Source: an uncultured virus (IMG/VR IMGVR_UViG_3300013121_000030) (lineage: Duplodnaviria > Heunggongvirae > Uroviricota > Caudoviricetes). Taken from it: a stretch of 64,000 bases of DNA. How positions within the stretch are numbered: the first letter of the stretch is position 1; the number at the start of each line of letters is the position of its first letter. This document shows, piece by piece, positions 35,756-45,737 of this stretch. The position numbers and the translations under genes are program-made. The notes beneath the pieces were generated by a model. It had not been told where the DNA came from. It saw only the letters and a program-made list of their open reading frames with translations, and made no database searches. The stretch is from IMG/VR virus record IMGVR_UViG_3300013121_000030, positions 170,245-234,244 of that record. One strand, 5' to 3'.

Positions 35756-36543
35756 AGTTTTTTCTATCCCCTGTGCAGGGTATGCACAGCACAACGTTTC
35801 AGAAGAAAGCTATGGACTTCATGGCAACATCGTGGACGCAAAGTAAAAGCGGATGGGATCTGGGAGGGAAGTCCATCCGGATTTTTGTGACCAACCAACA
35901 CCGCGAAGATCCTGGGACTTGGGTGTACTCCTGTCCCGAGTTGGACATTCGGGCTCGTCCCTTGATCAGCCGAGGGCAGGCCCCTGCGGATGCTGAAGAG
36001 GCCAAGACGTGGGCTAAATCGTTCGTGGCCGCAAAACTCAAGGCTATGCTTGCTGAAGTAGTTTAAAACCACTCCACAGTCTGAGAGGAGAGAAAGTGGA
36101 TTCGGAGAGCCCCTTGAATCCCGTGCCGCAGAGCTAGGCTCTTGCAGCAGGAGCCTATCCGGTGCTCAAGAACGTGAGGTAGAACTTGAAAGGCTCCCGC
36201 GATCTCCAGGACGATGTTGGGGGGAAGGGGGACTCCTCCCGTGAAGTCTCCCACCTCAAGGTCTCTCTCCCAGAGAGACCCAAAGGCAACGAGATGCTGC
36301 CACACGGGCACAGGACGAGGGATAACGACCGTTTGCGCAGGGGAACGACTCTCTCTGAGGAAGGCGGGAGGCACCCGTTTGAGCATCTTCAAGAGGAGAT
36401 TATGCATGTCCCCATGGTAGCCGGCAGACCTAGTTACATGGAGGGTTCTCGGCATGTGAAACGGAGCCTGGAGAATACCCGCGGTCCTGGGCCTACCTAC
36501 ACCTACATGTAATACAAAAGTTTCGGTGGGGTGTTGATCCTCC

Positions 36544-36572
36544 GTGTAACTTTGGGGTACACGTGCTAACCT
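36544..36572 (+). promoter_or_regulatory. Promoter of the tRNA/ncRNA cluster
   Basis: GTGTAAC-N11-CGTGCTAACCT. Confidence 0.7.
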
Positions 36573-36697
36573 TCAATCATCGGGAAGCGGAGAAGCTTCT
36601 CGAATCCCTTCGGGGTTTGGCACAAATCTGGGGACGAGGGTTCGATTCCCTCACCTCCTGCTCCTTTCCAACCGAATAGCCGAAGAAGAGCATTCTT

Positions 36698-36769
36698 GCA
36701 GGTGTAGTTCAGTGGTAGAACGCCAGCCTTCCACGCTGGATGCCGAGGGTTCGAGTCCCTCTACCTGCT
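36698..36769 (+). tRNA. tRNA-Gly(TCC)
   Basis: CCAGC-CTTCCAC-GCTGG cloverleaf. Confidence 0.92.
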
Positions 36770-36773
36770 CTGA

Positions 36774-36843
36774 TCCTGGATGCTACATGGGGATACATCT
36801 GACCGTTAACCAGAACCACGACCCTCATGCGTTTTTGCCAGGG
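36774..36843 (+). ncRNA. Y-RNA-like element 1 (short; GTT-containing hairpin)
   Basis: CCTGGATGC...GGGATACA-TCTGACCGTTAACCAGA...TTTTTGCCAGG shared scaffold. Confidence 0.6.
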
Positions 36844-37106
36844 TCTTCTTTTTGGGGGAAAAAGTGATCCCCCGACACCCAAGAGACTGACCTAGTTCTT
36901 CCCCTTGACTCTGGGGGAGTCTGCGAGGTTGAGGGTGGTGGGCCATGAGTCTTCCGCCCACTCACTTTGACGCTTGGGGGAATAGACCCCGGAGTACAGC
37001 ACTGTTGCTCGCAGATCTCTCTCTTTTGAGAGAGGAGTTGTAGGCCAACAACTTCAGCCCCGCTGGGGATCTGGAAACAGGCGGACACGCTGGATAGACA
37101 GCGGGT

Positions 37107-37177
37107 GGGGAAGTCCTCGCTGGTGCGAGGCCAGGGTCTTGAAACGCTGGGTGTAGGTTCGATTCCTATCTTCCTCA
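37107..37177 (+). tRNA. Atypical tRNA-like gene (TGA loop, 6-bp D-stem, no variable arm)
   Basis: GGGGAAG/CTTCCTC acceptor, CCTCGC-TGGT-GCGAGG, CTTGAAA loop, GTAGG-TTCGATT-CCTAT. Confidence 0.5.
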
Positions 37178-37179
37178 AA

Positions 37180-37398
37180 GCCTCTGTGTGCCCAACGGAT
37201 AGGGCGCCCCAAAAACGTAGGGGGGGTACCTGTAAAAAGGCCGTTATCGACTCTGGGGGGTAGAAACGATCCTTCGGAGGTAGACCACATAGGTTGCGGA
37301 TGCACCGGGCCCGACTAAAGAGTTATCGGGTAGGGAAGCGAGTTTCCTAAATAGGGTCTTTTGCGCGACGGATGCGGGTTCGACTCCCGCCTGAGGCA
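37180..37398 (+). ncRNA. tRNA-like RNA with a ~160-nt insert replacing the anticodon arm
   Basis: 5' GCCTCTG plus D-arm GCCC-AACGGATA-GGGC; 3' GCGGG-TTCGACT-CCCGC-CTGAGGC-A. Confidence 0.6.
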
Positions 37399-37408
37399 TT
37401 GTTCGAGA

Positions 37409-37482
37409 GCGTGCCTAGCTCAACTGGATAGAGCATCGGTCTTCGGAACCGAGGGTTGGGGGTTCGATTCCCTCGGCGCGCG
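37409..37482 (+). tRNA. tRNA-Arg(TCG)
   Basis: TCGGT-CTTCGGA-ACCGA. Confidence 0.92.
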
Positions 37483-37486
37483 CTTC

Positions 37487-37570
37487 GCTCACCTGGTGGA
37501 ATTGGCAGACACACTGGATTCAGGTTCCAGTACCGTAACAGGTGTGGGGGTTCGACTCCCCCGGTGAGAA
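37487..37570 (+). tRNA. tRNA-Leu(CAG)
   Basis: CTGGA-TTCAGGT-TCCAG, variable arm; 1:72 mismatch. Confidence 0.85.
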
Positions 37571-37574
37571 ACTG

Positions 37575-37712
37575 TCCTACATGTGGGACATACTTCAGAG
37601 GTCGGTGAAAAAAGTTGTGTAACTCGGGTCGCCCCGTGCTACACTTGGGGTGTCGCGGTTGAGACCACGACGCCTCTCTGAAAACTGAAGAGTTCTGAAG
37701 AAGAGCATTCAT
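37575..37712 (+). promoter_or_regulatory. Internal promoter/leader module, copy 1 (copy 2 at 39347-39485)
   Basis: Promoter 37617-37645, hairpin, then CTGAAAACTGAAGAGTTCTGAAGAAGAGCATTCAT. Confidence 0.8.
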
Positions 37713-37783
37713 GCAGGTGTGGTCCAGCGGTAGGACGCTGCCTTGCCAAGGCGGAAGCGAGAGTTCGACTCTCTCCACTTGCT
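37713..37783 (+). tRNA. tRNA-Gly(GCC)
   Basis: CTGCC-TTGCCAA-GGCGG. Confidence 0.92.
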
Positions 37784-37799
37784 TACGGATCTTTTCGAG

Positions 37800-38100
37800 T
37801 CGTGTGAACCCTGGTCAATCAGGCTGCACCTAAAAGAATGGGGTGCGGGTGAGGAAGACCCACAAGGCTCGAAAGAAACATGCGCCCCCTGGCTGATCAT
37901 GGGGGACGCGGGCGGATGGCCCCTGTCCAGGGTCTGGAGCCGACAGACACGATCTCATGTGCCGTTGAACGGGGGGGGGGTGATCACCCTCGCTAGGCGG
38001 GATCGGGTCGACGGCGAAACTGGGCTTTCCAGTCCCAGCAAGCGGCGGACACACTGCGTCGCATCTGTGATGTCCCCCCACAGGCCAACCAGGGGGACGC
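37800..38100 (+). ncRNA. Large structured ncRNA, paralog A
   Basis: Colinear conserved blocks shared with 38440-38810. Confidence 0.6.
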
Positions 38101-38101
38101 T

Positions 38102-38174
38102 GCCCGAATAGCTCAACAGGAAGAGCGCCGCTTTCGTACTGCGGAGGCTATCGGTTCGATTCCGGTTTCGGGCT
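38102..38174 (+). tRNA. tRNA-Thr(CGT)
   Basis: CCGCT-TTCGTAC-TGCGG. Confidence 0.88.
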
Positions 38175-38361
38175 TTCCGATCGATGGGAGTTTCGATCGG
38201 GGTGTTATCCTCCGGTCCGCGGAGCCTCGCCAAGTCATCTCCACGGTCTGTCCGGAGGATTTCTCTGGGGGAACTTGGCTCATCCCACAAACCCTCCACA
38301 CTGCCCCAGTGTGCTTGACAGATGGACTGGCCAGTCCTGAAGACAAGAGAATGGGGTTTTT

Positions 38362-38434
38362 GCCCGAATAGCTCAGATGGGAGAGCGCTACCTTGGTACG
38401 GTGGAGGTCGCCGGTTCGATTCCGGTTTCGGGCT
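38362..38434 (+). tRNA. tRNA-Thr(GGT)
   Basis: CTACC-TTGGTAC-GGTGG. Confidence 0.92.
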
Positions 38435-38439
38435 CGATT

Positions 38440-38810
38440 GCGTTTGTAGCTCATCGTCACAAGCGCAACTGTGAACCCTTGATAAGTTCACAGAGGGTGC
38501 TCCCCATCCATCCTAGGTCGTGCGTGGGGAGATGTCCGTGGAGCTGATAGCTACTTTCGCAGTCTGGAGTGAGGTGATTCCTCCCCAGGGGTTTCTAGTG
38601 GCCCCAATGAACTGCGTTACCGTGGGCGTGGAACCCCATGGGACAGAGAGCGACGGCGAAATGGGGGTGAGGTGACCCCACAAGCGGCGGAAACACTGCG
38701 TCGCAAAAACAGGACAGTTGATCGGGTCCTGAGGCCCCTCCCGAAAGGGAGGAGGTAGCCAGATTCGAGTCCCAAACCTCGGCCGCAGGTTCCTAGAACC
38801 TTGGCGAAGT
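38440..38810 (+). ncRNA. Large structured ncRNA, paralog B
   Basis: GTGAACCCT...GTCTGGAG...CGACGGCGAAA-hairpin-CAAGCGGCGGAAACACTGCGTCGCA. Confidence 0.6.
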
Positions 38811-38816
38811 GGGGGT

Positions 38817-38888
38817 AACCTTGAAGCTCAATGGTGGAGCAACCGTTAAATCACCGGGGGTCGTCAGTTCGATTCTGACCAAGGGTAC
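38817..38888 (+). pseudogene. tRNA-like gene with a degenerate anticodon arm
   Basis: D-arm GCTC..GAGC and T-arm GTCAG-TTCGATT-CTGAC intact; anticodon arm irregular. Confidence 0.55.
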
Positions 38889-38951
38889 TGAGGGAGCCAT
38901 CCCTTTCTGGCATGGGGCGCTGATGTCTTCGTGTCAGAGAAAATGGCAACT

Positions 38952-39023
38952 GCCCGGGTAGCTCAGCGGTAGAGCGATGCCCTTACAAGGCGAGGGTCGG
39001 GGGTTCGATCCCCTCCCTGGGCA
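38952..39023 (+). tRNA. tRNA-Val(TAC)
   Basis: GCC-CTTACAA-GGC. Confidence 0.9.
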
Positions 39024-39065
39024 CAATGAGGTTCCAGGATAAAACCTCTTGAAACGCCTGGGAAT

Positions 39066-39138
39066 GGGGCCTTAGCTCAATTGGGAGAGCGCCTGCTTTG
39101 CACGCAGGAGGTCATCGGTTCGATCCCGATAGGCTCCA
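39066..39138 (+). tRNA. tRNA-Ala(TGC)
   Basis: G3:U70; CCTGC-TTTGCAC-GCAGG. Confidence 0.95.
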
Positions 39139-39261
39139 CTGAAGTGCTGTCGTCTAAGTTGCTGGGCCCCCGCGACGCCCAGTGGCCCCCGTGATACCAA
39201 TCATCGGGAGAAAGATCCCGTTAGGGAAATGCCAGAGAAACCCTGGCCATGCACTTCTCAA

Positions 39262-39343
39262 GCTCGCCTGGTGGAATTGGCAGACACGCCAGACTAAGGA
39301 TCTGGTGCCTTCGGGTGTGGGGGTTCGAGTCCCCCGGTGAGCA
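39262..39343 (+). tRNA. tRNA-Leu(AAG)
   Basis: CCAGA-CTAAGGA-TCTGG, variable arm. Confidence 0.88.
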
Positions 39344-39346
39344 AGT

Positions 39347-39485
39347 ATCCTACATGTAGGACACATCTTCGGAGTCGAAGAAAAAAGTTGTGTAACTCGG
39401 GTCCTCTCGTGCTACACATGGGGAGCCGCGGTCGAGATCGCGGCGCCTCCCTGAAAACCGAAGAGTTCTGAAGAAGAGCATTCAT
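39347..39485 (+). promoter_or_regulatory. Internal promoter/leader module, copy 2
   Basis: Promoter 39390-39418; near-duplicate of 37575-37712; both follow a Leu tRNA. Confidence 0.8.
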
Positions 39486-39572
39486 CCGTGGGTGGTTGAC
39501 TGTCGGTAAGTCACAGCGGTCTGTAAAACCGCCCGCCTTCGGGCGTCGGGGGTTCAACTCCCTCCCCACGGA
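39486..39572 (+). tRNA. tRNA-Tyr(GTA) with C1:G72
   Basis: CCGTGGG/CCCACGG-A; GCGGT-CTGTAAA-ACCGC; long variable arm. Confidence 0.8.
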
Positions 39573-39649
39573 CCGAAAAGTGCGTTGTCTCGGCTACGAA
39601 ACCGAGGCTGTGGGCTCCGCCAGACAAGCCCGAAATGAAACCTGGCCCT

Positions 39650-39737
39650 GGAAGGGACGCGAATGTTGGGTTTTCGCACTCGATTGGAAATCGAGCGTTC
39701 TCAAAAGGGACCGAGGGTTCAATTCCCTCCTCTTCCG
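39650..39737 (+). tRNA. tRNA-Ser(GGA)
   Basis: CTCGA-TTGGAAA-TCGAG, long variable arm, G73. Confidence 0.8.
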
Positions 39738-39894
39738 CAAGGTCTTCCCATTCGTATCATTGGAACCCCTCCTTGAAGCAGGGAGAGAGCTTCTGGTTAG
39801 CCTCATTTGACCAAGGTGGTTCGAGTCCACCACTTTCATGACTCTCGTATGAGGACGAGAGTGGGGAAAGATGGGTACGTTGGGAAGCCTCTAT

Positions 39895-39968
39895 CGCGGG
39901 ATAGAGCAGTCTGGTAGCTCGTCAGGCTCATAACCTGAAGGCCGCTGGTTCAAATCCAGCTCCCGCAA
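39895..39968 (+). tRNA. Initiator tRNA-fMet(CAT)
   Basis: C1xA72; TCAGG-CTCATAA-CCTGA. Confidence 0.92.
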
Positions 39969-39979
39969 TTCGTCGATCA

Positions 39980-40051
39980 GGGATATTGGTCCAGTGGTCA
40001 GGACGCTGCGCTGTCTACGCAGAAGCGAGGGTTCGATTCCCTCATGTCCCG
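39980..40051 (+). tRNA. tRNA-Asp(GTC)
   Basis: CTGCG-CTGTCTA-CGCAG, G73. Confidence 0.92.
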
Positions 40052-40198
40052 CAGCTTCAGTTCAGGTCTACCCTGTGTGACCGGGGTGAGAGGTCATGGT
40101 GGGTCTGCATATTCATCGTTCCGTTCGATTCGGATAGCGGCCGGGCGGCTGCGAAACAAACGCCGATGCAGAGGCGGTGAGATCTGAGCTGAGCGTTT

Positions 40199-40271
40199 GC
40201 AGGAGTAACTCAGTTGGCAGAGTGTCAGCTTCCCAAGCTGAATGTCGCGGGTTCGAGCCCCGTTTCCTGCT
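40199..40271 (+). tRNA. tRNA-Gly(CCC)
   Basis: TCAGC-TTCCCAA-GCTGA. Confidence 0.92.
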
Positions 40272-40280
40272 AGATCTTCT

Positions 40281-40354
40281 CGGAGTACGGGCTCAAGGTG
40301 GGCCGCCTGTTTTGGGAACAGGATATCAGGAGGGTTCGATCCCCTCTACTCCGA
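40281..40354 (+). tRNA. Atypical tRNA-Pro(TGG)
   Basis: C1:G72; CCTGT-TTTGGGA-ACAGG; C8 and non-standard D arm. Confidence 0.75.
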
Positions 40355-40356
40355 CT

Positions 40357-40422
40357 GTTCGGATGCCCCTGGGGGATTACATTCTTTTGGTGAACTGCAC
40401 ATCTCCCAAATATTTGCCGAAC
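40357..40422 (+). ncRNA. Y-RNA-like element 2 (short; Gln TTG anticodon-like loop)
   Basis: GTTCGGATGC...GGGGATTACA-TTC-TTTTGGT-GAA...TTTGCCGAAC. Confidence 0.65.
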
Positions 40423-40426
40423 AAAC

Positions 40427-40498
40427 GTCCGTATAGCTCAATGGATAGAGCAACGGTCTACGGAACCGAAGATCCAGGTTCGAGTCCTGGTATGGACA
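40427..40498 (+). tRNA. tRNA-Arg(ACG)
   Basis: CGGT-CTACGGA-ACCG. Confidence 0.92.
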
Positions 40499-40500
40499 CT

Positions 40501-40582
40501 GCCTCGAATGCTGTAGAGGACTACATTGAAAACGTCCGACTAACCCTCGGATAGAAGTGTCTTCTCAATCTTTCGTCGAGGT
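40501..40582 (+). ncRNA. Y-RNA-like element 3 (short; TTGAAAA Phe-like loop)
   Basis: GCCTCGAATGC...GAGGACTACA-TTGAAAA...TTTCGTCGAGGT. Confidence 0.65.
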
Positions 40583-40586
40583 GTTA

Positions 40587-40660
40587 GCGCGTGTAGCTCA
40601 GTTGGTTAGAGTGCTGTCCTGATAAGACGGAGGTCGCAGGTTCAATTCCTGCCATGCGCA
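40587..40660 (+). tRNA. tRNA-Ile(GAT)
   Basis: CTGTC-CTGATAA-GACGG. Confidence 0.93.
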
Positions 40661-40664
40661 CTGT

Positions 40665-40790
40665 CCTGGATGCTCGATGGGGTTTCATTTCGTCTGAACC
40701 ACGAGAGGACTGGGTTCGAGTCCCAGCGGTCGGGAAACTGGCTGTGGTGTAAAGGTAGCACAAAAACAAGTCTCATCACACTTTGCCAGG
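40665..40790 (+). ncRNA. Y-RNA-like element 4 with a circularly permuted tRNA (GAA)
   Basis: ASL TTCGT-CTGAACC-ACGAG, T-arm CTGGG-TTCGAGT-CCCAG, acceptor CGGTCGG-GAAA-CTGGCTG, D-arm GTGT-AAAGGTA-GCAC. Confidence 0.8.
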
Positions 40791-40795
40791 CATCT

Positions 40796-40867
40796 TGGTG
40801 TGTCGTCCAAAGGCTAGGACGTCGGTTTCTGACACCGCGAATGGGGGTTCGAGTCCCTCCACACCAA
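40796..40867 (+). tRNA. tRNA-Gln(CTG)
   Basis: U1:A72; CGGT-TTCTGAC-ACCG. Confidence 0.9.
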
Positions 40868-40889
40868 AGGATTCTCAGGGTTTAGACAC

Positions 40890-40962
40890 GGGCTGGTAGC
40901 TCAACTGGCAGAGCGGCGGACTCTTAATCCGTAGGTTGAGGGTTCGACTCCCTCTCAGCTCA
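40890..40962 (+). tRNA. tRNA-Lys(CTT)
   Basis: GCGGA-CTCTTAA-TCCGT. Confidence 0.93.
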
Positions 40963-40967
40963 CACAT

Positions 40968-41038
40968 GGTCTCATGGTCGATTGGTCAGGCGGCAGTCTG
41001 CAAAACTGCATAAGGGGGTTCGATTCCCCCTGAGACCT
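40968..41038 (+). tRNA. tRNA-Cys(GCA)
   Basis: GCAGT-CTGCAAA-ACTGC, U73. Confidence 0.9.
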
Positions 41039-41040
41039 CA

Positions 41041-41113
41041 GGGCGCATCGTCTAACTGGCGAGGATAGGAGGACCTCACCCTCCAGATGCGGGTTCGATC
41101 CCCGCTGCGCTCA
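41041..41113 (+). tRNA. tRNA-Glu(CTC), with C33 instead of U33
   Basis: GGAGG-ACCTCAC-CCTCC. Confidence 0.8.
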
Positions 41114-41115
41114 CA

Positions 41116-41253
41116 GCTCGGATGCTGTAAGGGAATACATCAAACCGCGGGTCGCAGGTTCAAGCCCTGCCCCCCACAATCGACGTGGGGGTAGCTCAGT
41201 TGGGAGAGCAGCGGTCTTGCCGTCAGGCATATTCTCTTCGATTTTCGCCGAGT
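41116..41253 (+). ncRNA. Y-RNA-like element 5 (YrlA-type; tRNA opened in the anticodon loop)
   Basis: ACCGC, T-arm GCAGG-TTCAAGC-CCTGC, CCCCAC-loop-GTGGGG, D-arm GCTC-AGTTGGGA-GAGC, GCGGT. Confidence 0.8.
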
Positions 41254-41258
41254 CACTA

Positions 41259-41332
41259 CGGGATGCGGGCTCAAGGTGGGCCGCCTGTCTGGGGGACAGG
41301 ACATCAGGTGGGTTCGATCCCCATCATCCCGA
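41259..41332 (+). tRNA. Atypical tRNA-Pro(GGG)
   Basis: CCTGT-CTGGGGG-ACAGG; same body as 40281. Confidence 0.75.
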
Positions 41333-41334
41333 CC

Positions 41335-41461
41335 GCCGAATGCTTTGAGGGAGTACATCCATTGGGCGGACGAGGACCAGGTTCGACTCCTGGCCTCCCC
41401 AAATGTGGGGAGGTAGTGTAACGGATAGCACGCGAAAAATCCTCTCTCTACTTTTGTCGGC
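41335..41461 (+). ncRNA. Y-RNA-like element 6 with a circularly permuted tRNA (TGG)
   Basis: GCCGAATG 5' motif; TCC-ATTGGGC-GGA, T-arm, CCTCCCCA-AATG-TGGGGAGG, D-arm GTGT-AACGGATA-GCAC. Confidence 0.8.
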
Positions 41462-41467
41462 ACCTAT

Positions 41468-41544
41468 CGGAGTACGGACTCAAGGCGGGTCGCCTGTTTC
41501 GGGAACAGGATATCAGGAGGGTTCGATCCCCTCTACTCCGACCA
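41468..41544 (+). tRNA. Atypical tRNA-Pro(CGG) with encoded CCA
   Basis: CCTGT-TTCGGGA-ACAGG; same body as 40281. Confidence 0.75.
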
Positions 41545-41555
41545 GTAATCTCCAT

Positions 41556-41639
41556 GGAGGGATGGCCGAGAGGTAAGGCAGCGCTTTGCTACAGCGTCGT
41601 CTGGTACAGCCAGCGGGGGTTCGATTCCCTCTCCCTCCG
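41556..41639 (+). tRNA. tRNA-Ser(GCT)
   Basis: GCGCT-TTGCTAC-AGCGT, variable arm. Confidence 0.9.
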
Positions 41640-41645
41640 CACCTT

Positions 41646-41730
41646 GGAAGGGCAAGCCAATGGGCGATGGCGCCGAACTCGAACTTCGGTGAGCGTAACT
41701 GCCTTGTGGGTTCGACTCCCACTCCTTCCG
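41646..41730 (+). tRNA. tRNA-Ser(CGA)
   Basis: CCGAA-CTCGAAC-TTCGG, variable arm, G73. Confidence 0.8.
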
Positions 41731-41734
41731 CAAG

Positions 41735-42130
41735 GAATGCTTAGACGCCTGTGGATTGGGGTCAGCGTCGTCCACAGGGGGCCGACTTTGAGTCTGAAAA
41801 TCTCAACGAGGGATTTTCGGGCTTGCACGTTCGGTGGTGTCTCTCCGGGGGCAAGCCATAACGGCCCTGAGGTGCAGGTTCTCTTAGTGGAACAACACAC
41901 TTCGAGGAGAGACCACTGGTGCCAACGAACCCACATTATTAGTGGGAGCGAGCTTTCTGCTAGGCTCTCCAGAGTGCTGTAGGGTGAACCGACTGCCTCA
42001 ATAGGTTGGTGACGATGGTGGAGAGACACCTGAGATCAGGTCTCGTGGAATCCGTTATTTTTATAACGGTGCTTGTAAGTGGCTCGCAAGTGAGGTCTCT
42101 TAAAAGGGATCACTCCAAGAACCTGAACTT
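41735..42130 (+). ncRNA. Unidentified ~400-nt structured RNA region
   Basis: Many hairpins; long-range CAGGTTCT/AGAACCTG pairing; no credible ORF. Confidence 0.5.
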
Positions 42131-42135
42131 TTTTC

Positions 42136-42264
42136 TGCGGATGCTCGAAGGGGTTTCATCACTGCCAATGACGAGTTCCAGGTTCGATTCCTGGCTCCCG
42201 CAAACGTCTGCGGGAGTAGTTTAAGGGTAAAACGCGATACGATCCTCTTCACTTTTTTGCCGCG
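42136..42264 (+). ncRNA. Y-RNA-like element 7 with a circularly permuted tRNA-Gly(GCC)-like module
   Basis: TCA-CTGCCAA-TGA, T-arm CCAGG-TTCGATT-CCTGG, CTCCCGCA-loop-TGCGGGAG, D-arm GTTT-AAGGGTA-AAAC. Confidence 0.8.
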
Positions 42265-42270
42265 GATTCT

Positions 42271-42342
42271 CGTGGGGTAGCACAATGGTAGGGCAGGGGC
42301 CTCATAAGCTCAAGGTTGCGGGTTCGATTCCCGCCCTCACGA
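42271..42342 (+). tRNA. tRNA-Met or Ile2 (CAT)
   Basis: GGGC-CTCATAA-GCTC. Confidence 0.85.
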
Positions 42343-42349
42343 CTCATCT

Positions 42350-42423
42350 CGGAATGTAGCGCAGTCTGGTAGCGCGCCTGTTTTGGGTACAGGAGGCCGA
42401 GGGTTCGAGTCCCTCCATTCCGA
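42350..42423 (+). tRNA. tRNA-Pro(TGG), canonical
   Basis: CCTGT-TTTGGGT-ACAGG with a standard D arm. Confidence 0.93.
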
Positions 42424-44353: not shown

Positions 44354-45190
44354 GTGTTCTTCCCCATGGAAACTAAGACTGCAGCAATCAGCTTCCAGGA
44401 CGACTCCACGGTCCTCTATGTGATGGGGGAGGCGACTTTTTCCCTTCGGAGGGATGGTCGTCTTTGTGTCACGTTGCCCCCCAACAGCGGCTACCTTGTC
44501 GCTCGGGGAGGCCTGAACACCAAGTTTCTCCTTCACAAGGAGGATGGGGAGGTTCTTCGGGGCGATTGGGATGGGATCTATACGCTTGAGGTGACAGCAG
44601 TGGTGGCGGTGAGGGGTTTGGCGAAGCTTGGTGTTTCGGTGGCGCTCCTCCAGGAGGGCAAGGTTCCTCAGATGTGGGTTTTCGATGGAGAACTTCGTCG
44701 CGTTGCCACGGACATTGGGGACGCGGTGGCAGAGGCTCGCAGCCTCCTCGCTGAGGCTGGGAACGAAGAAACTGAGGAGGAGGGGGTTCGCATCTCGGAT
44801 TTTGTAACTCTTCCACGTGATGTGGTCCGACGCTACAATTGTGGGATTGGCCCCATCACTCTGGTGAAAGAGTATCCTCCGTCGACTGAGGAGCCTCCCA
44901 AGGCTCCTTGGGGGTACCACTATGAGTGGGAGACGTTTGGGGTGGGGCGCCGCGTCACTCAACGGGATCTTGCTGTGGTGGAGATTTTGCGTCGTGCGGA
45001 TCGTGACCTCTATGGGAGGGTTGCTCCTCTTCTGGAGATGATCGCGGGGGTAAGCCGGCACGAGACGGGTGGGGCTGTGTGGCAGGAGCTTCGGCTTCGT
45101 GCAGATGTGGTCTCGGAGCGGGAGGCGTACTTCCAGAAGAGGGAATCTCTCCGCGGGGAGGTCGAAAAGCCCAATCCTAATCGGGATTGA
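44354..45190 (+). CDS. Hypothetical protein
   Basis: 278 aa ORF. Confidence 0.55.
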   Translation: MFFPMETKTAAISFQDDSTVLYVMGEATFSLRRDGRLCVTLPPNSGYLVARGGLNTKFLLHKEDGEVLRGDWDGIYTLEVTAVVAVRGLAKLGVSVALLQEGKVPQMWVFDGELRRVATDIGDAVAEARSLLAEAGNEETEEEGVRISDFVTLPRDVVRRYNCGIGPITLVKEYPPSTEEPPKAPWGYHYEWETFGVGRRVTQRDLAVVEILRRADRDLYGRVAPLLEMIAGVSRHETGGAVWQELRLRADVVSEREAYFQKRESLRGEVEKPNPNRD

Positions 45191-45737
45191 CCGAGAACTC
45201 GTCACACCTGTACTGAGTGCGACGAGTGGGGTCCCAGAGACCTGGGAGATGGGCCTTGAAGGTCTCGTATCCGAAGGTCGTGGACACGAGGGACGAGAAT
45301 CCAACAACTTCGTCCCACTCGTTCATCCAGTCTCGAAGATCGCAAAGGCCGCAACAGGAGTGGAGGCTTTCCCACATACTCCGAGCCTTTTGTTTGGTTA
45401 TGAATTTCATCCGACGAGCTTCTGTGATCTCGCGGGATAGGGACTTGATGGACTCGGCTTCCAAGATTTGGACGGGGTAGCCGAGGCACAGCTTCTCGGC
45501 AATGTAGCTGGGGTCGTGACGCACGACTCGATCAACCCAGGCGAAAAAGTCTGAGGTCTCGTCGGAGCGCCAGGATGACCATCCATGGTGGCCGCAGACA
45601 TCATCCACAGAGAAGAACATTTCGCCATATGTGCCTTCCTGGCGGAGGACAGCAGCAACCTGGAAGCCCTGGGAAACCCACGAGAGATATCGAATTCGCA
45701 TGGGTTGGATACCCGGAGTTTCTTCTATTCCCTCCAT
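45177..45737 (-). CDS. Hypothetical protein
   Basis: DPSYIAEKL-type phage protein. Confidence 0.45.
   Translation of the reverse strand: MEGIEETPGIQPMRIRYLSWVSQGFQVAAVLRQEGTYGEMFFSVDDVCGHHGWSSWRSDETSDFFAWVDRVVRHDPSYIAEKLCLGYPVQILEAESIKSLSREITEARRMKFITKQKARSMWESLHSCCGLCDLRDWMNEWDEVVGFSSLVSTTFGYETFKAHLPGLWDPTRRTQYRCDEFSVNPD

What the first reader, a model, noticed from the sequence alone, without database searches (positions are those of the whole stretch)
36774..42264. Family of seven Y-RNA-like scaffolds displaying permuted tRNAs or bare anticodon loops
Seen: seven elements (36774, 40357, 40501, 40665, 41116, 41335, 42136) share one scaffold. It runs 5' stem-(C/T)GRATGC-purine strand-TWCA-[cargo]-pyrimidine strand-U-rich bulge-3' stem, and the terminal stems covary (CCTGG/CCAGG, GTTCGG/CCGAAC, CCTCGA/TCGAGG, CTCGG/CCGAG, GCCGA/TCGGC, GCGG/CCGC). 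The cargo differs. Four copies hold a tRNA in permuted order. Three hold only a small anticodon-like loop (GTT Asn, TTG Gln, GAA Phe). Known: bacterial YrlA Y RNAs have a Ro60-binding stem with a GNCGAAN(0-1)G motif (exact at 41335) and a T-acceptor-D tRNA-like module. Inference: this is an expanded phage-encoded panel that presents different anticodons. It could act as decoys for anticodon nucleases, as Ro60/RtcB tethers, or as regulators of aaRS or tRNA repair. No Ro60 or RtcB gene lies in this window.
Basis: partly seen in the sequence, partly recalled or inferred. Interest (0 to 1): 0.92.

Follow-up and report, generated by a model that had tools for sequence, protein, structure and literature searches.

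The report
Seven phage Y RNAs among tRNA genes
A 234-kb wastewater phage carries seven small RNAs of the known bacterial Y RNA type (partners of the Ro60 protein, which the phage also encodes) wedged between its tRNA genes; this is a large new example of a known system, and three of its four tRNA-like copies also imitate a tRNA anticodon arm.

Summary
Seven elements on the + strand share one scaffold, and a strict motif and a covariance model each find exactly these seven in the whole 234-kb phage genome. The scaffold is that of bacterial YrlA Y RNAs: a terminal stem, CGAAUGC-type motif, purine/pyrimidine helix and conserved UAC. Four copies carry the T arm-acceptor hairpin-D arm module, and three short copies resemble YrlB.

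They score below Rfam's YrlA threshold but align to it full length. The same model hits about 120 copies elsewhere. These lie in tRNA arrays of other jumbo phages and in tandem arrays directly beside Ro60 genes in 18 bacterial or MAG loci. One of those copies passes Rfam's threshold. Covariation is strong (97% of cells paired against 66% in shuffles).

The phage has its own Ro60 gene outside the window, and no RtcB.

One addition: in long copies, the hairpin after UAC is a 7-nt loop with U33/R37, placed exactly as a tRNA anticodon arm. This is highly enriched over shuffles. It is not enriched in short copies, so the "bare anticodon loop" reading of the three short ones is weak.

This scan has met phage Ro60/Y-RNA arrays on other DNA before.

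Verdict: a new member of a known kind. No expression or binding data were obtained.

The parts
36773..36844 (+). Y RNA copy 1, short (YrlB-like): scaffold plus a small cargo hairpin with a 9-nt loop
   Evidence: R1 33.2 bits, full model; 7-bp terminal stem, GGAUGC, UACAU; begins 2 nt after tRNA-Gly(UCC)
40356..40423 (+). Y RNA copy 2, short: cargo loop UUUUGGU on a 3-bp stem
   Evidence: R1 35.8 bits; the same loop occurs in L004:10008-10079; 0 nt after tRNA-Pro and 3 nt before tRNA-Arg; weak Rfam YrlB hit of 21.6 bits, E 1.2
40501..40582 (+). Y RNA copy 3, short: cargo is a 6-bp hairpin with loop CUAACCC
   Evidence: R1 43.1 bits; GAAUGC paired with GUC; 1 nt after tRNA-Arg and 4 nt before tRNA-Ile
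40663..40791 (+). Y RNA copy 4, long (YrlA-like): anticodon-arm-like hairpin, T arm, closed acceptor hairpin, D arm
   Evidence: R1 78.7 bits; fold and alignment; between tRNA-Ile and tRNA-Gln with gaps of 1 and 3 nt
40689..40705 (+). Anticodon-arm-like hairpin of copy 4 (5-bp stem, loop CUGAACC)
   Evidence: U33 is present but position 37 is C. Loop end to T stem is 9 nt (read).
41115..41254 (+). Y RNA copy 5, long, canonical YrlA topology: a long-range 5-bp stem ACCGC/GCGGU closes the T-acceptor-D module, with an extra 3' hairpin
   Evidence: R1 83.6 bits; best Rfam YrlA hit at 37.4 bits, E 1.7e-5; fold; nearest relative L012:12923-13059, which by my reading has the same layout
41333..41463 (+). 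Y RNA copy 6, long; the only copy with an exact GNCGAAN0-1G motif
   Evidence: R1 96.3 bits; Rfam YrlA 29.1 bits over model 1-114; 77% identical to L004:10391-10523 in another phage, which has the same loop type; lies between tRNA-Pro(GGG) and tRNA-Pro(CGG)
41358..41370 (+). Anticodon-arm-like hairpin of copy 6 (loop AUUGGGC; UGG, Pro-like)
   Evidence: 9 nt to the T stem
42134..42266 (+). Y RNA copy 7, long
   Evidence: R1 98.0 bits; Rfam YrlA 33.6 bits over model 1-114; ARAGORN miscalls part of it as tRNA-Gly(gcc) at 42136-42203; 4 nt before tRNA-Met
42159..42171 (+). Anticodon-arm-like hairpin of copy 7 (loop CUGCCAA; GCC, Gly-like)
   Evidence: one mismatch from this phage's own tRNA-Gly(GCC) loop UUGCCAA
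36698..42944 (+). tRNA array that hosts the seven Y RNAs (30 ARAGORN tRNA calls on the + strand once the false call on copy 7 is removed, plus one further tRNA that only Rfam calls at 38817-38887)
36544..36568 (+). Phage promoter-like motif GTGTAA-N13-GTGCTA upstream of tRNA-Gly(UCC) and copy 1
37617..37641 (+). The same promoter-like motif, inside a repeated spacer
39390..39414 (+). The same promoter-like motif; the nearest one upstream of the run of tRNAs that holds copies 2 to 7

Best explanation
The seven elements are phage-encoded bacterial-type Y RNAs: four YrlA-like and three YrlB-like. They most likely serve as RNA partners of the phage's own Ro60 (Rsr) protein.

Shown here:
- They share the YrlA scaffold.
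- That scaffold covaries across about 120 homologues.
- Homologues sit beside Ro60 genes.
- This phage encodes a Ro60.

Inferred:
1. The RNAs are transcribed as part of polycistronic tRNA transcripts from phage promoters.
2. They are cut out by the enzymes that mature the flanking tRNAs. RNase Z or 3' trimming of the upstream tRNA makes the 5' end, and RNase P on the downstream tRNA makes the 3' end. The reason is that the copies lie 0-2 nt after one tRNA (6 of 7) and 3-4 nt before the next (6 of 7).
3. The terminal stem and CGAAUGC/UUGUCG internal loop bind Ro60, as in other Y RNAs.
4. The tRNA-like module acts as the effector side. It may gate the Ro60 ring and tether it to a tRNA-binding or RNA-decay factor such as host PNPase, as shown for Deinococcus, Salmonella and Thermus phage phiLo.

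In three of the four long copies the module is a whole cloverleaf opened between D stem and anticodon stem, and it includes an anticodon-arm mimic. The paralogues are old and differ in that arm, so they probably address different tRNA-recognising partners.
For: Identity:
- Rfam YrlA (RF02553) aligns over model positions 1-114 to 41333-41466 and 42134-42269, with the same S1, AUGC loop, S2, UA(C), T arm, acceptor hairpin and D arm.
- Exactly seven hits in the genome, by regex and by model R1.

Family:
- R1 finds 49 copies in 13 loci from 11 IMG/VR phage contigs plus the window.
- It finds 69 copies in 25 bacterial or MAG loci.
- One of these, L027:4845-4979, passes Rfam's YrlA gathering score at 69.5 bits.

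Structure:
- 97.0% of cells are paired, against 65.6% in shuffles and 40-56% when partners are slid.
- 20 of 23 pairs show compensatory changes, and the covariation score is 0.664 against 0.181.
- RNAalifold on a plain MAFFT alignment already gave 18 of 23 compensatory pairs.

Ro60 link:
- The phage ORF of 564 aa has TROVE and Ro60 vWA domains. It matches Rsr 2nvo at E 4.5e-22 and vertebrate Ro60.
- Ro60 homologues of 33-37% identity lie beside the RNA arrays in 18 loci (14 bacterial or MAG, L033 among them, and phage loci L004, L009 and L014), with partial matches at the ends of L013 and L026.
- 7 of 11 related viral records have a Ro60, including 4 of the 5 that are at least 90% complete.
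- In cultured phages Mx1, Atuin and RHph_TM30 the Ro60 gene lies among tRNA genes and R1-type RNAs.

Processing: gaps to flanking tRNAs; 32 of 49 phage copies abut a tRNA within 10 nt; promoter-like motifs in the array.

[quoted passage not shown] PMC12135203 shows that phage phiLo Ro60 binds two phage Y RNAs and forms a complex with host PNPase.
Against: - No copy reaches Rfam's YrlA gathering score (29-37 bits against 69). A tandem-tRNA false positive scores 32 bits, so the Rfam score alone would not be enough.
- Six of seven copies depart from the literal GNCGAAN0-1G motif. Five have GGAUG, with a compensating change in the partner strand.
- The Ro60 gene is not nearby. It lies about 176 kb away on the linear record, on the other strand. 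The published criterion was within 4 kb on the same strand.
- One related 52-kb phage record, rated complete, has a copy but no detectable Ro60.
- R1 finds nothing in phage phiLo, whose Y RNAs are published. The model does not cover all Y RNAs.
- There are no expression, end-mapping or binding data.
Confidence: 0.78

Rival explanations
1. Anticodon-arm decoys or sensors. The panel exists to present anticodon stem-loops of particular tRNAs. It would soak up or report host anticodon nucleases (PrrC/RloC, PARIS, retron PtuAB, colicin-like enzymes) or bind synthetases and modification enzymes, with Ro60 as carrier or stabiliser. This extends the main explanation rather than replacing it.
For: - Long copies carry a hairpin with a 7-nt loop, U at position 2 and a purine at position 6: 17 of 32 in phage loci against 1.8 in dinucleotide shuffles, and 11 of 51 in bacterial loci against 2.4 (0 of 500 shuffles reach either value).
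- In the all-copies test, 20 of 49 copies have a loop within one mismatch of a real tRNA loop and 6 are exact, against 3.7 and 0.45 in shuffles. Examples are CUGAUAA, CUGUUAA, CUCGAAA and CUACGAA.
- Loop end to T stem is 9-10 nt in all 17 phage cases, which is tRNA geometry.
- Loops of the same type recur in distant genomes, for example AUACGGA in a 36% GC element and a 60% GC element.
- Phage tRNAs are known counter-measures to tRNA-cutting defences (PMC11555353; 10.1101/2024.01.02.573894).
Against: - Short copies show no enrichment (3 of 15 against 1.4; 75 of 500 shuffles reach it).
- Many loops start with A (AUUGGGA, AUACGGA), which is rare at position 32 of real tRNAs: 5 of 234 here.
- Stems are often only 3 bp.
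- The tRNA-like bodies do not match the tRNA of the displayed anticodon more than chance (2 of 26 against 1.5).
- No nuclease or synthetase data exist.
Confidence: 0.18
2. The anticodon-like hairpins are relics, not functional. YrlA arose from tandem tRNAs (the Sim and Wolin model quoted in bioRxiv 10.1101/312249). Inside tRNA arrays, the anticodon arm of the upstream tRNA is simply carried along or refreshed by recombination with neighbouring tRNAs. The Y RNAs work through the scaffold and the T/D elbow only.
For: - The order anticodon arm, variable loop, T arm, acceptor 3' strand, spacer, acceptor 5' strand, D arm is what a tRNA dimer would leave.
- Copy 5 and several relatives lack the hairpin and use the canonical closed stem.
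- Only about half of the phage long copies and about a fifth of the bacterial ones keep the signature.
Against: - The paralogues are old, 60-66% identical to each other, yet the U33/R37 signature persists.
- The nearest neighbour by tRNA body in another contig shares the triplet in 5 of 26 cases, against 1.4 by chance (37 of 2000 shuffles).
- Acceptor stems are perfectly paired within a copy. This fits one permuted tRNA better than two different tRNAs.
Confidence: 0.25
3. Permuted or split tRNA genes that mature into working tRNAs, as in Cyanidioschyzon merolae, with the shared scaffold acting as a processing helix.
For: - Three copies contain every arm of a cloverleaf in permuted order.
- ARAGORN calls part of copy 7 a tRNA-Gly.
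- M. smegmatis YrlA is cut by RNase P and receives CCA (PMC4201824).
Against: - The junction is the conserved YrlA Ro60-binding module, not a bulge-helix-bulge splice motif (by reading).
- Three copies have no tRNA body at all.
- The phage already has ordinary tRNAs for GAA, UGG and GCC.
- The acceptor stems are closed by 4-8-nt loops without CCA.
- No RtcB ligase is present.
Confidence: 0.03
4. Decayed tRNA pseudogenes or inert spacers of the array.
For: They lie in a tRNA array that also holds other odd tRNA-like fragments.
Against: - Scaffold helices are conserved with compensatory changes across about 120 copies in phages and bacteria.
- The copies are linked to Ro60 genes.
- AUGC and UAC are invariant.
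Confidence: 0.02

Closest known systems
YrlA (Y RNA-like A; Rfam RF02553; Chen et al. 2014, PMC4201824; structure in Wang et al. 2018, bioRxiv 10.1101/312249)
   Same: - Terminal stem with a GNCGAA-type motif.
- AUGC internal loop.
- Purine/pyrimidine second helix.
- Conserved YUAY.
- T arm, closed acceptor hairpin and D arm in that order.
- A stem-loop ('V') upstream of the T arm.
- Association with Ro60, and occurrence in phages.
- Copy 5 has the canonical closed 'anticodon stem' topology.
   Different: - All copies score below the Rfam gathering score.
- Five of seven have GGAUGC/UUUGCC in place of CGAAUGC/UUGUCG.
- They are not within 4 kb of Ro60.
- There are seven paralogues, interleaved with tRNA genes.
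- In copies 4, 6 and 7 the 'V' hairpin has the size, spacing and loop signature of an anticodon arm. The Salmonella structure paper states that YrlA lacks the anticodon loop.
YrlB (Salmonella and M. smegmatis short Y RNAs; Rfam RF02565)
   Same: A short RNA with the same Ro60-binding end and no tRNA-like domain, encoded beside YrlA. This fits copies 1 to 3.
   Different: There is no meaningful match to the Rfam YrlB model (21.6 bits against 97). Chen et al. found relatives of YrlB only in Salmonella enterica serovars. The cargo hairpins are unrelated.
Thermus phage phiLo Ro60 with Yrl1 and Yrl2 (PMC12135203)
   Same: A large phage that encodes Ro60 and its own Y RNA-like partners with a CGAA motif. 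Binding to phage Ro60 and a ternary complex with host PNPase were shown there.
   Different: - phiLo has two RNAs next to the gene; here there are seven, far from it and inside a tRNA array.
- R1 does not detect the phiLo RNAs.
- This phage's Ro60 is only 23.5% identical to phiLo's over the matched part.
Unannotated R1-type RNAs in cultured phages Myxococcus phage Mx1, Arthrobacter phage Atuin and Rhizobium phage RHph_TM30
   Same: The same scaffold by R1 (2, 2 and 4 full-length or near-full-length hits), among tRNA genes and near a Ro60 gene. Mx1 has the closest Ro60 in GenBank phages at 34.7% identity.
   Different: They have fewer copies and lower R1 scores (27-57 bits). I did not examine their hairpins.

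Membership tests
YrlA (RF02553) | Score at or above Rfam's gathering threshold (69 bits) | tested here: not met
   37.4, 33.6 and 29.1 bits for copies 5, 7 and 6. Copy 4 and the short copies were not reported. A tandem-tRNA artefact scores 32.4. A homologue in the same R1 family (L027:4845-4979) does pass at 69.5 bits.
YrlA (RF02553) | 5'/3' terminal stem carrying GNCGAAN0-1G near the 5' end (the presumed Rsr-binding site) | tested here: met
   Exact in copy 6 (GCCGAAUG). Copy 3 has CUCGAAUG. The other five have YGGAUG, with the partner strand changed from GUC to GCC, so the pair is kept in 7 of 7. Most relatives have NCGAAUGC.
YrlA (RF02553) | tRNA-like domain: T arm, closed acceptor-like hairpin and D arm in that order | tested here: met
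   Present in copies 4 to 7. T stem and acceptor pairs covary. Acceptor hairpins are 7 bp. Absent from copies 1 to 3.
YrlA (RF02553) | Conserved YUAY after the second helix | tested here: met
   AUAC, UUAC, CUAC, AUAC and GUAC in copies 1, 2, 3, 5 and 6. Copies 4 and 7 have UUUC. UACA is present in 47 of 49 phage-locus copies.
YrlA (RF02553) | Encoded within about 4 kb of a Ro60 gene, on the same strand (criterion of Chen et al. 2014) | tested here: not met
   Ro60 lies at C1:30086-31780 on the - strand. The RNAs lie at C1:207017-212510 on the + strand. The criterion is met by homologues in 18 other loci.
YrlA (RF02553) | Structure supported by covariation | tested here: met
   (figures in the For line). 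Caveat: alignment A4 was fitted to the model. The MAFFT-only alignment A3 gave the same helices.
YrlA (RF02553) | Bound by Ro60/Rsr in vivo | not testable with these tools
   Needs pull-down or gel shift.
YrlB-type short Y RNA | Ro60-binding scaffold without a tRNA-like domain, encoded beside YrlA | tested here: met
   Copies 1 to 3 give full-length R1 matches of 33-43 bits with the cargo skipped. The Rfam YrlB model itself does not match (21.6 bits, E 1.2).
Ro60/Rsr protein (partner) | TROVE (HEAT-repeat ring) plus vWA domain with a MIDAS motif | tested here: met
   PF05731 and PF25045 are both above their cut-offs. DVSGSM is present. Matches 2nvo at E 4.5e-22 and 1yvp at E 2.1e-10.
Permuted tRNA genes (Cyanidioschyzon type) | Bulge-helix-bulge junction and maturation to a normal tRNA | tested here: not met
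   The junction is two helices of 7 bp separated by an asymmetric internal loop of roughly 7-8 nt on the 5' side and 8-12 nt on the 3' side. It is conserved as the YrlA module (by reading). Maturation is not testable here.
tRNA (RF00005) | Gathering score of 29 bits in normal arm order | tested here: not met
   Only copy 7 gives a hit, at 20 bits. The ARAGORN call at 42136-42203 is an artefact of the permuted module.

The most novel reading that the evidence does not exclude
The 'V' stem-loop of many YrlA-type Y RNAs is really an anticodon stem-loop mimic. Multi-copy Y RNA panels in phages and bacteria would then give one Ro60 ring a set of isoacceptor-specific faces (here Phe-like, Pro-like and Gly-like). 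These faces would lure, sense or hand over to repair or decay the proteins and damaged tRNAs involved in anticodon-targeted defence. That would name the long-sought class of partners of the tRNA-like domain.
Probability: 0.18. Interest if true: 0.8.

Novelty: new member of a known kind. Interest (0 to 1): 0.45.

Why it matters
Bacterial Y RNAs have been known since 2014, but what their tRNA-like domain binds is still open.

This locus and its relatives show three things:
- Large phages routinely place several Y RNA paralogues inside tRNA operons, where tRNA-processing enzymes can release them.
- Copy numbers of 7 to 11 or more occur.
- Long copies carry a statistically clear anticodon-arm mimic with varied 'anticodons'.

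That points experiments towards anticodon-recognising proteins and towards the conflict over tRNA cleavage between phages and hosts. Cultured phages with the same RNAs (Mx1, Atuin, RHph_TM30) make this testable.

Practical consequences:
- These RNAs fall below Rfam's threshold. They are absent from the feature tables of the three cultured phage records I looked at.
- They cause false tRNA calls.

Tried and rejected
- Rfam at gathering thresholds gives only tRNAs in the window and in the 13 phage loci.
- The search for related loci with the single Ro60 protein found nothing in IMG/VR. A DNA pattern worked instead.
- blastn of the region against GenBank phages hit only tRNAs.
The small shares are not used as evidence of anything.
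- RtcB (PF01139), T4 Rnl1-type ligase (PF09511; its control search rang nowhere, so this says nothing about absence) and a CCA-adding enzyme (PF01743) were not found in the genome.
- Test of whether each tRNA-like body derives from the tRNA of its displayed anticodon: negative (2 of 26 against 1.5 expected).
- Test of whether nearest neighbours share the triplet: weak (5 of 26; 37 of 2000 shuffles).
- MFE folds of the short cargo regions were too unstable to use on their own.
- Two reviews (PMC10870794, PMC6047535) and the supplements of Chen 2014 are not held. I therefore could not check whether anticodon-like V loops or large arrays are mentioned there.
- A literature search for a Ro60-like phage protein acting against a defence system found nothing I could verify.

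Full report
**What is there**

The window is bases 170245-234244 of a 234,244-bp IMG/VR virus record rated about 90% complete. DNA runs that hold most of the stretch come from aquatic and wastewater metagenomes.

Between 36.7 and 42.9 kb lies a + strand tRNA array. ARAGORN tRNAs there, one of them false. The whole genome has 41 tRNAs once the false call is removed.

The strict motif G[AG]ATGC.{3,6}[AG]GG[AG].{1,3}[AT]CAT occurs seven times in the genome.

Each element folds with a 5-8-bp terminal stem (S1), an asymmetric internal loop, a second helix (S2) of a purine strand against a pyrimidine strand, and then a variable cargo. The R of GRAUGC pairs with the Y of UUGYC in all seven: G with C in five copies, A with U in two.

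**What it is**

At permissive thresholds the only non-tRNA family that stands out is Rfam's YrlA. It scores 37.4, 33.6 and 29.1 bits for the elements at 41116, 42136 and 41335.

These are below the gathering score of 69, and two adjacent tRNAs at 42297-42402 score 32.4. The score alone therefore proves nothing. The alignments are informative, though. The YrlA consensus is S1 cggCga/uCGccg, loop AUGCu, S2 uggGgaa/uucCcca, CUA, then T arm, closed acceptor hairpin and D arm. Elements 41335 and 42136 align to it from position 1 to 114 with all of these parts in register.

It includes their GNCGAAN0-1G motif, the conserved YUAY and the 'V' stem-loop upstream of the T arm.

**Relatives**

A DNA pattern that joins the scaffold to a T loop found 13 stretches on 11 IMG/VR contigs of 10-424 kb. 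All of them lie in tRNA arrays, and most hold several copies with long or short cargo.

I built covariance model R1 from 21 long copies.
- In the phage's own genome R1 gives exactly seven full-length hits (98 to 33 bits). The next full-length hit scores 19 bits and spans a tRNA.
- In the phage loci plus the window it gives 49 hits at E below 1e-5. Counts are at least 11 on the 424-kb contig, then 7, 5, 5, 4, 3, 3, 2, 1, 1 and 1 on the others.
- On that alignment 97.0% of cells pair, against 65.6% in shuffles and 40-56% when partners are slid. 20 of 23 pairs show changes on both sides.
- The alignment was fitted to the model. RNAalifold on the plain MAFFT alignment had already found the same S1, S2 and T helices, with 18 of 23 compensatory pairs.

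**Link to Ro60**

The genome encodes a 564-aa protein with TROVE and Ro60-type vWA domains at C1:30086-31780 on the - strand. It matches D. radiodurans Rsr (2nvo, E 4.5e-22), the phiLo phage Ro60 and vertebrate Ro60. RtcB is absent. An Rnl2-type RNA ligase is present at C1:92417-92944.

Of the 11 related viral records, 7 have a Ro60, including 4 of the 5 that are at least 90% complete.

The same DNA pattern in GTDB genomes gave 25 loci from many phyla. R1 finds 69 copies there, often in tandem runs of up to nine. A Ro60 homologue 33-37% identical to the phage protein lies directly beside the run in 14 of them, L033 among them. The same holds in phage loci L004, L009 and L014. Partial matches sit at the ends of L013 and L026. 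One of these copies, L027:4845-4979, passes Rfam's YrlA gathering score.

In cultured phages Mx1, Atuin and RHph_TM30 the Ro60 gene sits among tRNA genes. R1 finds 2, 2 and 4 copies nearby, and none of them is annotated.

Together this makes the identification as YrlA/YrlB-type Y RNAs secure, even though the Rfam threshold and the '4 kb from Ro60' criterion are not met in this genome.

**How they are probably made**

- Six of the seven copies start 0-2 nt after an upstream tRNA, and six end 3-4 nt before a downstream tRNA.
- Across the phage loci, 32 of 49 copies abut a tRNA within 10 nt.
- The tRNAs whose 3' ends I read do not encode CCA.
- Three copies of a phage promoter-like motif (GTGTAA-N13-GTGCTA) lie in the array at 36544, 37617 and 39390.

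The simplest reading is polycistronic transcription, with release by RNase P and RNase Z as by-products of tRNA maturation. This is inference only.

**The cargo**

Copy 5 (41115-41254) has the canonical YrlA topology. A long-range stem ACCGC/GCGGU closes the T-acceptor-D module, and a small extra hairpin follows.

In copies 4, 6 and 7 the sequence right after the conserved UAC/UUC forms a local hairpin with a 7-nt loop: CUGAACC, AUUGGGC and CUGCCAA. Next come 9 nt and then the T stem.

The same holds across the family.
- Among long copies in phage loci, 17 of 32 have such a hairpin with U at loop position 2 and a purine at position 6. Dinucleotide shuffles give 1.8, and 0 of 500 reach the observed value.
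- Among bacterial long copies it is 11 of 51 against 2.4.
- Over all 49 copies, 20 loops lie within one mismatch of a real anticodon loop from the same data set and 6 are exact, against 3.7 and 0.45 in shuffles.
- The distance from loop end to T stem is 9 or 10 nt in all 17 phage cases. That equals a 5-nt anticodon-stem strand plus a 4-5-nt variable loop.

So in these copies the tRNA-like module is a complete cloverleaf, opened between the D stem and the anticodon stem, with the Y RNA stem attached at that point. Even the Rfam-passing copy in L027 has a Thr-like loop, CUGGUAA.

The papers I could read call this hairpin a variable arm and state that Salmonella YrlA lacks an anticodon loop. I found no description of the mimicry, but two reviews and the 2014 supplements were not available.

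**Limits of the anticodon idea**

- Short copies show no enrichment (3 of 15 against 1.4; 75 of 500 shuffles reach it). Of the window's three short copies, only 40357 forms a 7-nt loop with both U33 and R37.
- Many loops begin with A, which is rare in real tRNAs, and stems are often 3 bp.
- The tRNA-like bodies do not resemble the tRNA of the displayed anticodon beyond chance.
- The sharing of triplets between nearest relatives is only modest.
- The paralogues are old. They are about 60-66% identical to each other, and copy 6 is 77% identical to a copy in a 392-kb phage with the same Pro-like loop.

Both a functional panel and a relic of an origin from tandem tRNAs remain possible.

**Verdict**

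The interpretation as Y-RNA-like is right, and the specific functional ideas are untested.

This is a new, large member of a known kind. Phage Ro60 and Y RNAs are established by Chen 2014, by the phiLo study PMC12135203 and by the jumbo-phage survey PMC7824862. This scan has already met similar phage Ro60/Y-RNA arrays on other genomes.

The features worth carrying forward are the tRNA-punctuated layout, the copy number, the separation from the Ro60 gene, and the anticodon-arm mimicry of the long copies.

Noticed in passing
window 37568-37716 and 39341-39489 (partly also 36500-36700): Two spacers of about 148 nt, roughly 80% identical by eye in the three-way alignment. Each follows a tRNA-Leu and carries the promoter-like motif GTGTAA-N13-GTGCTA. 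Both have a stem-rich leader that ends in GAAGAAGAGCAUUC just before the next tRNA. The same 3' tail precedes tRNA-Gly at 36698.
   Followed up: partly
window 42136-42203: ARAGORN calls a tRNA-Gly(gcc) here. This is a false positive made from the anticodon-like hairpin and T arm of Y RNA copy 7.
   Followed up: yes
window 36597-36665, 37106-37177, 37366-37400, 38817-38887, 39800-39835: Further T-arm-bearing or tRNA-like pieces in the array that ARAGORN does not call. 37106-37177 scores 40 bits on the tRNA-Sec model, below its threshold. 38817-38887 scores 35 bits on the tRNA model. Their nature is unknown.
   Followed up: no
window 41732-42133: A 400-nt spacer without tRNA or Y RNA between tRNA-Ser(CGA) and copy 7. 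It was not analysed.
   Followed up: no
G000:C1:92417-92944 (outside the window): An Rnl2-type RNA ligase (PF09414, 74.6 bits) in a 374-aa frame. The genome also holds eight scattered tRNA genes upstream of the window (Lys at C1:4695, Leu at C1:96626, and Phe, His, Arg, Arg, Ser and Met at C1:101-103 kb).
   Followed up: partly
L017:2203-4472, L020:7361-7999, L018:300-1472, L029:4537-6166: Bacterial or MAG contigs with tandem runs of 5 to 9 Y RNA copies. In L017, L020 and L029 the run lies directly downstream of a Ro60 gene; no Ro60 match fell within the L018 stretch. I have not seen such runs described in the papers I could read.
   Followed up: partly
L040 (Myxococcus phage Mx1, OR576727.2) record positions 45169-45294 and 45521-45624: Two unannotated R1-type Y RNAs in a cultured phage, about 11 kb upstream of its Ro60-like gene. 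This is a possible experimental system.
   Followed up: partly
L007:736-1087: A related jumbo-phage contig encodes a tmRNA (Rfam, 113.7 bits) next to its tRNA/Y RNA array.
   Followed up: no
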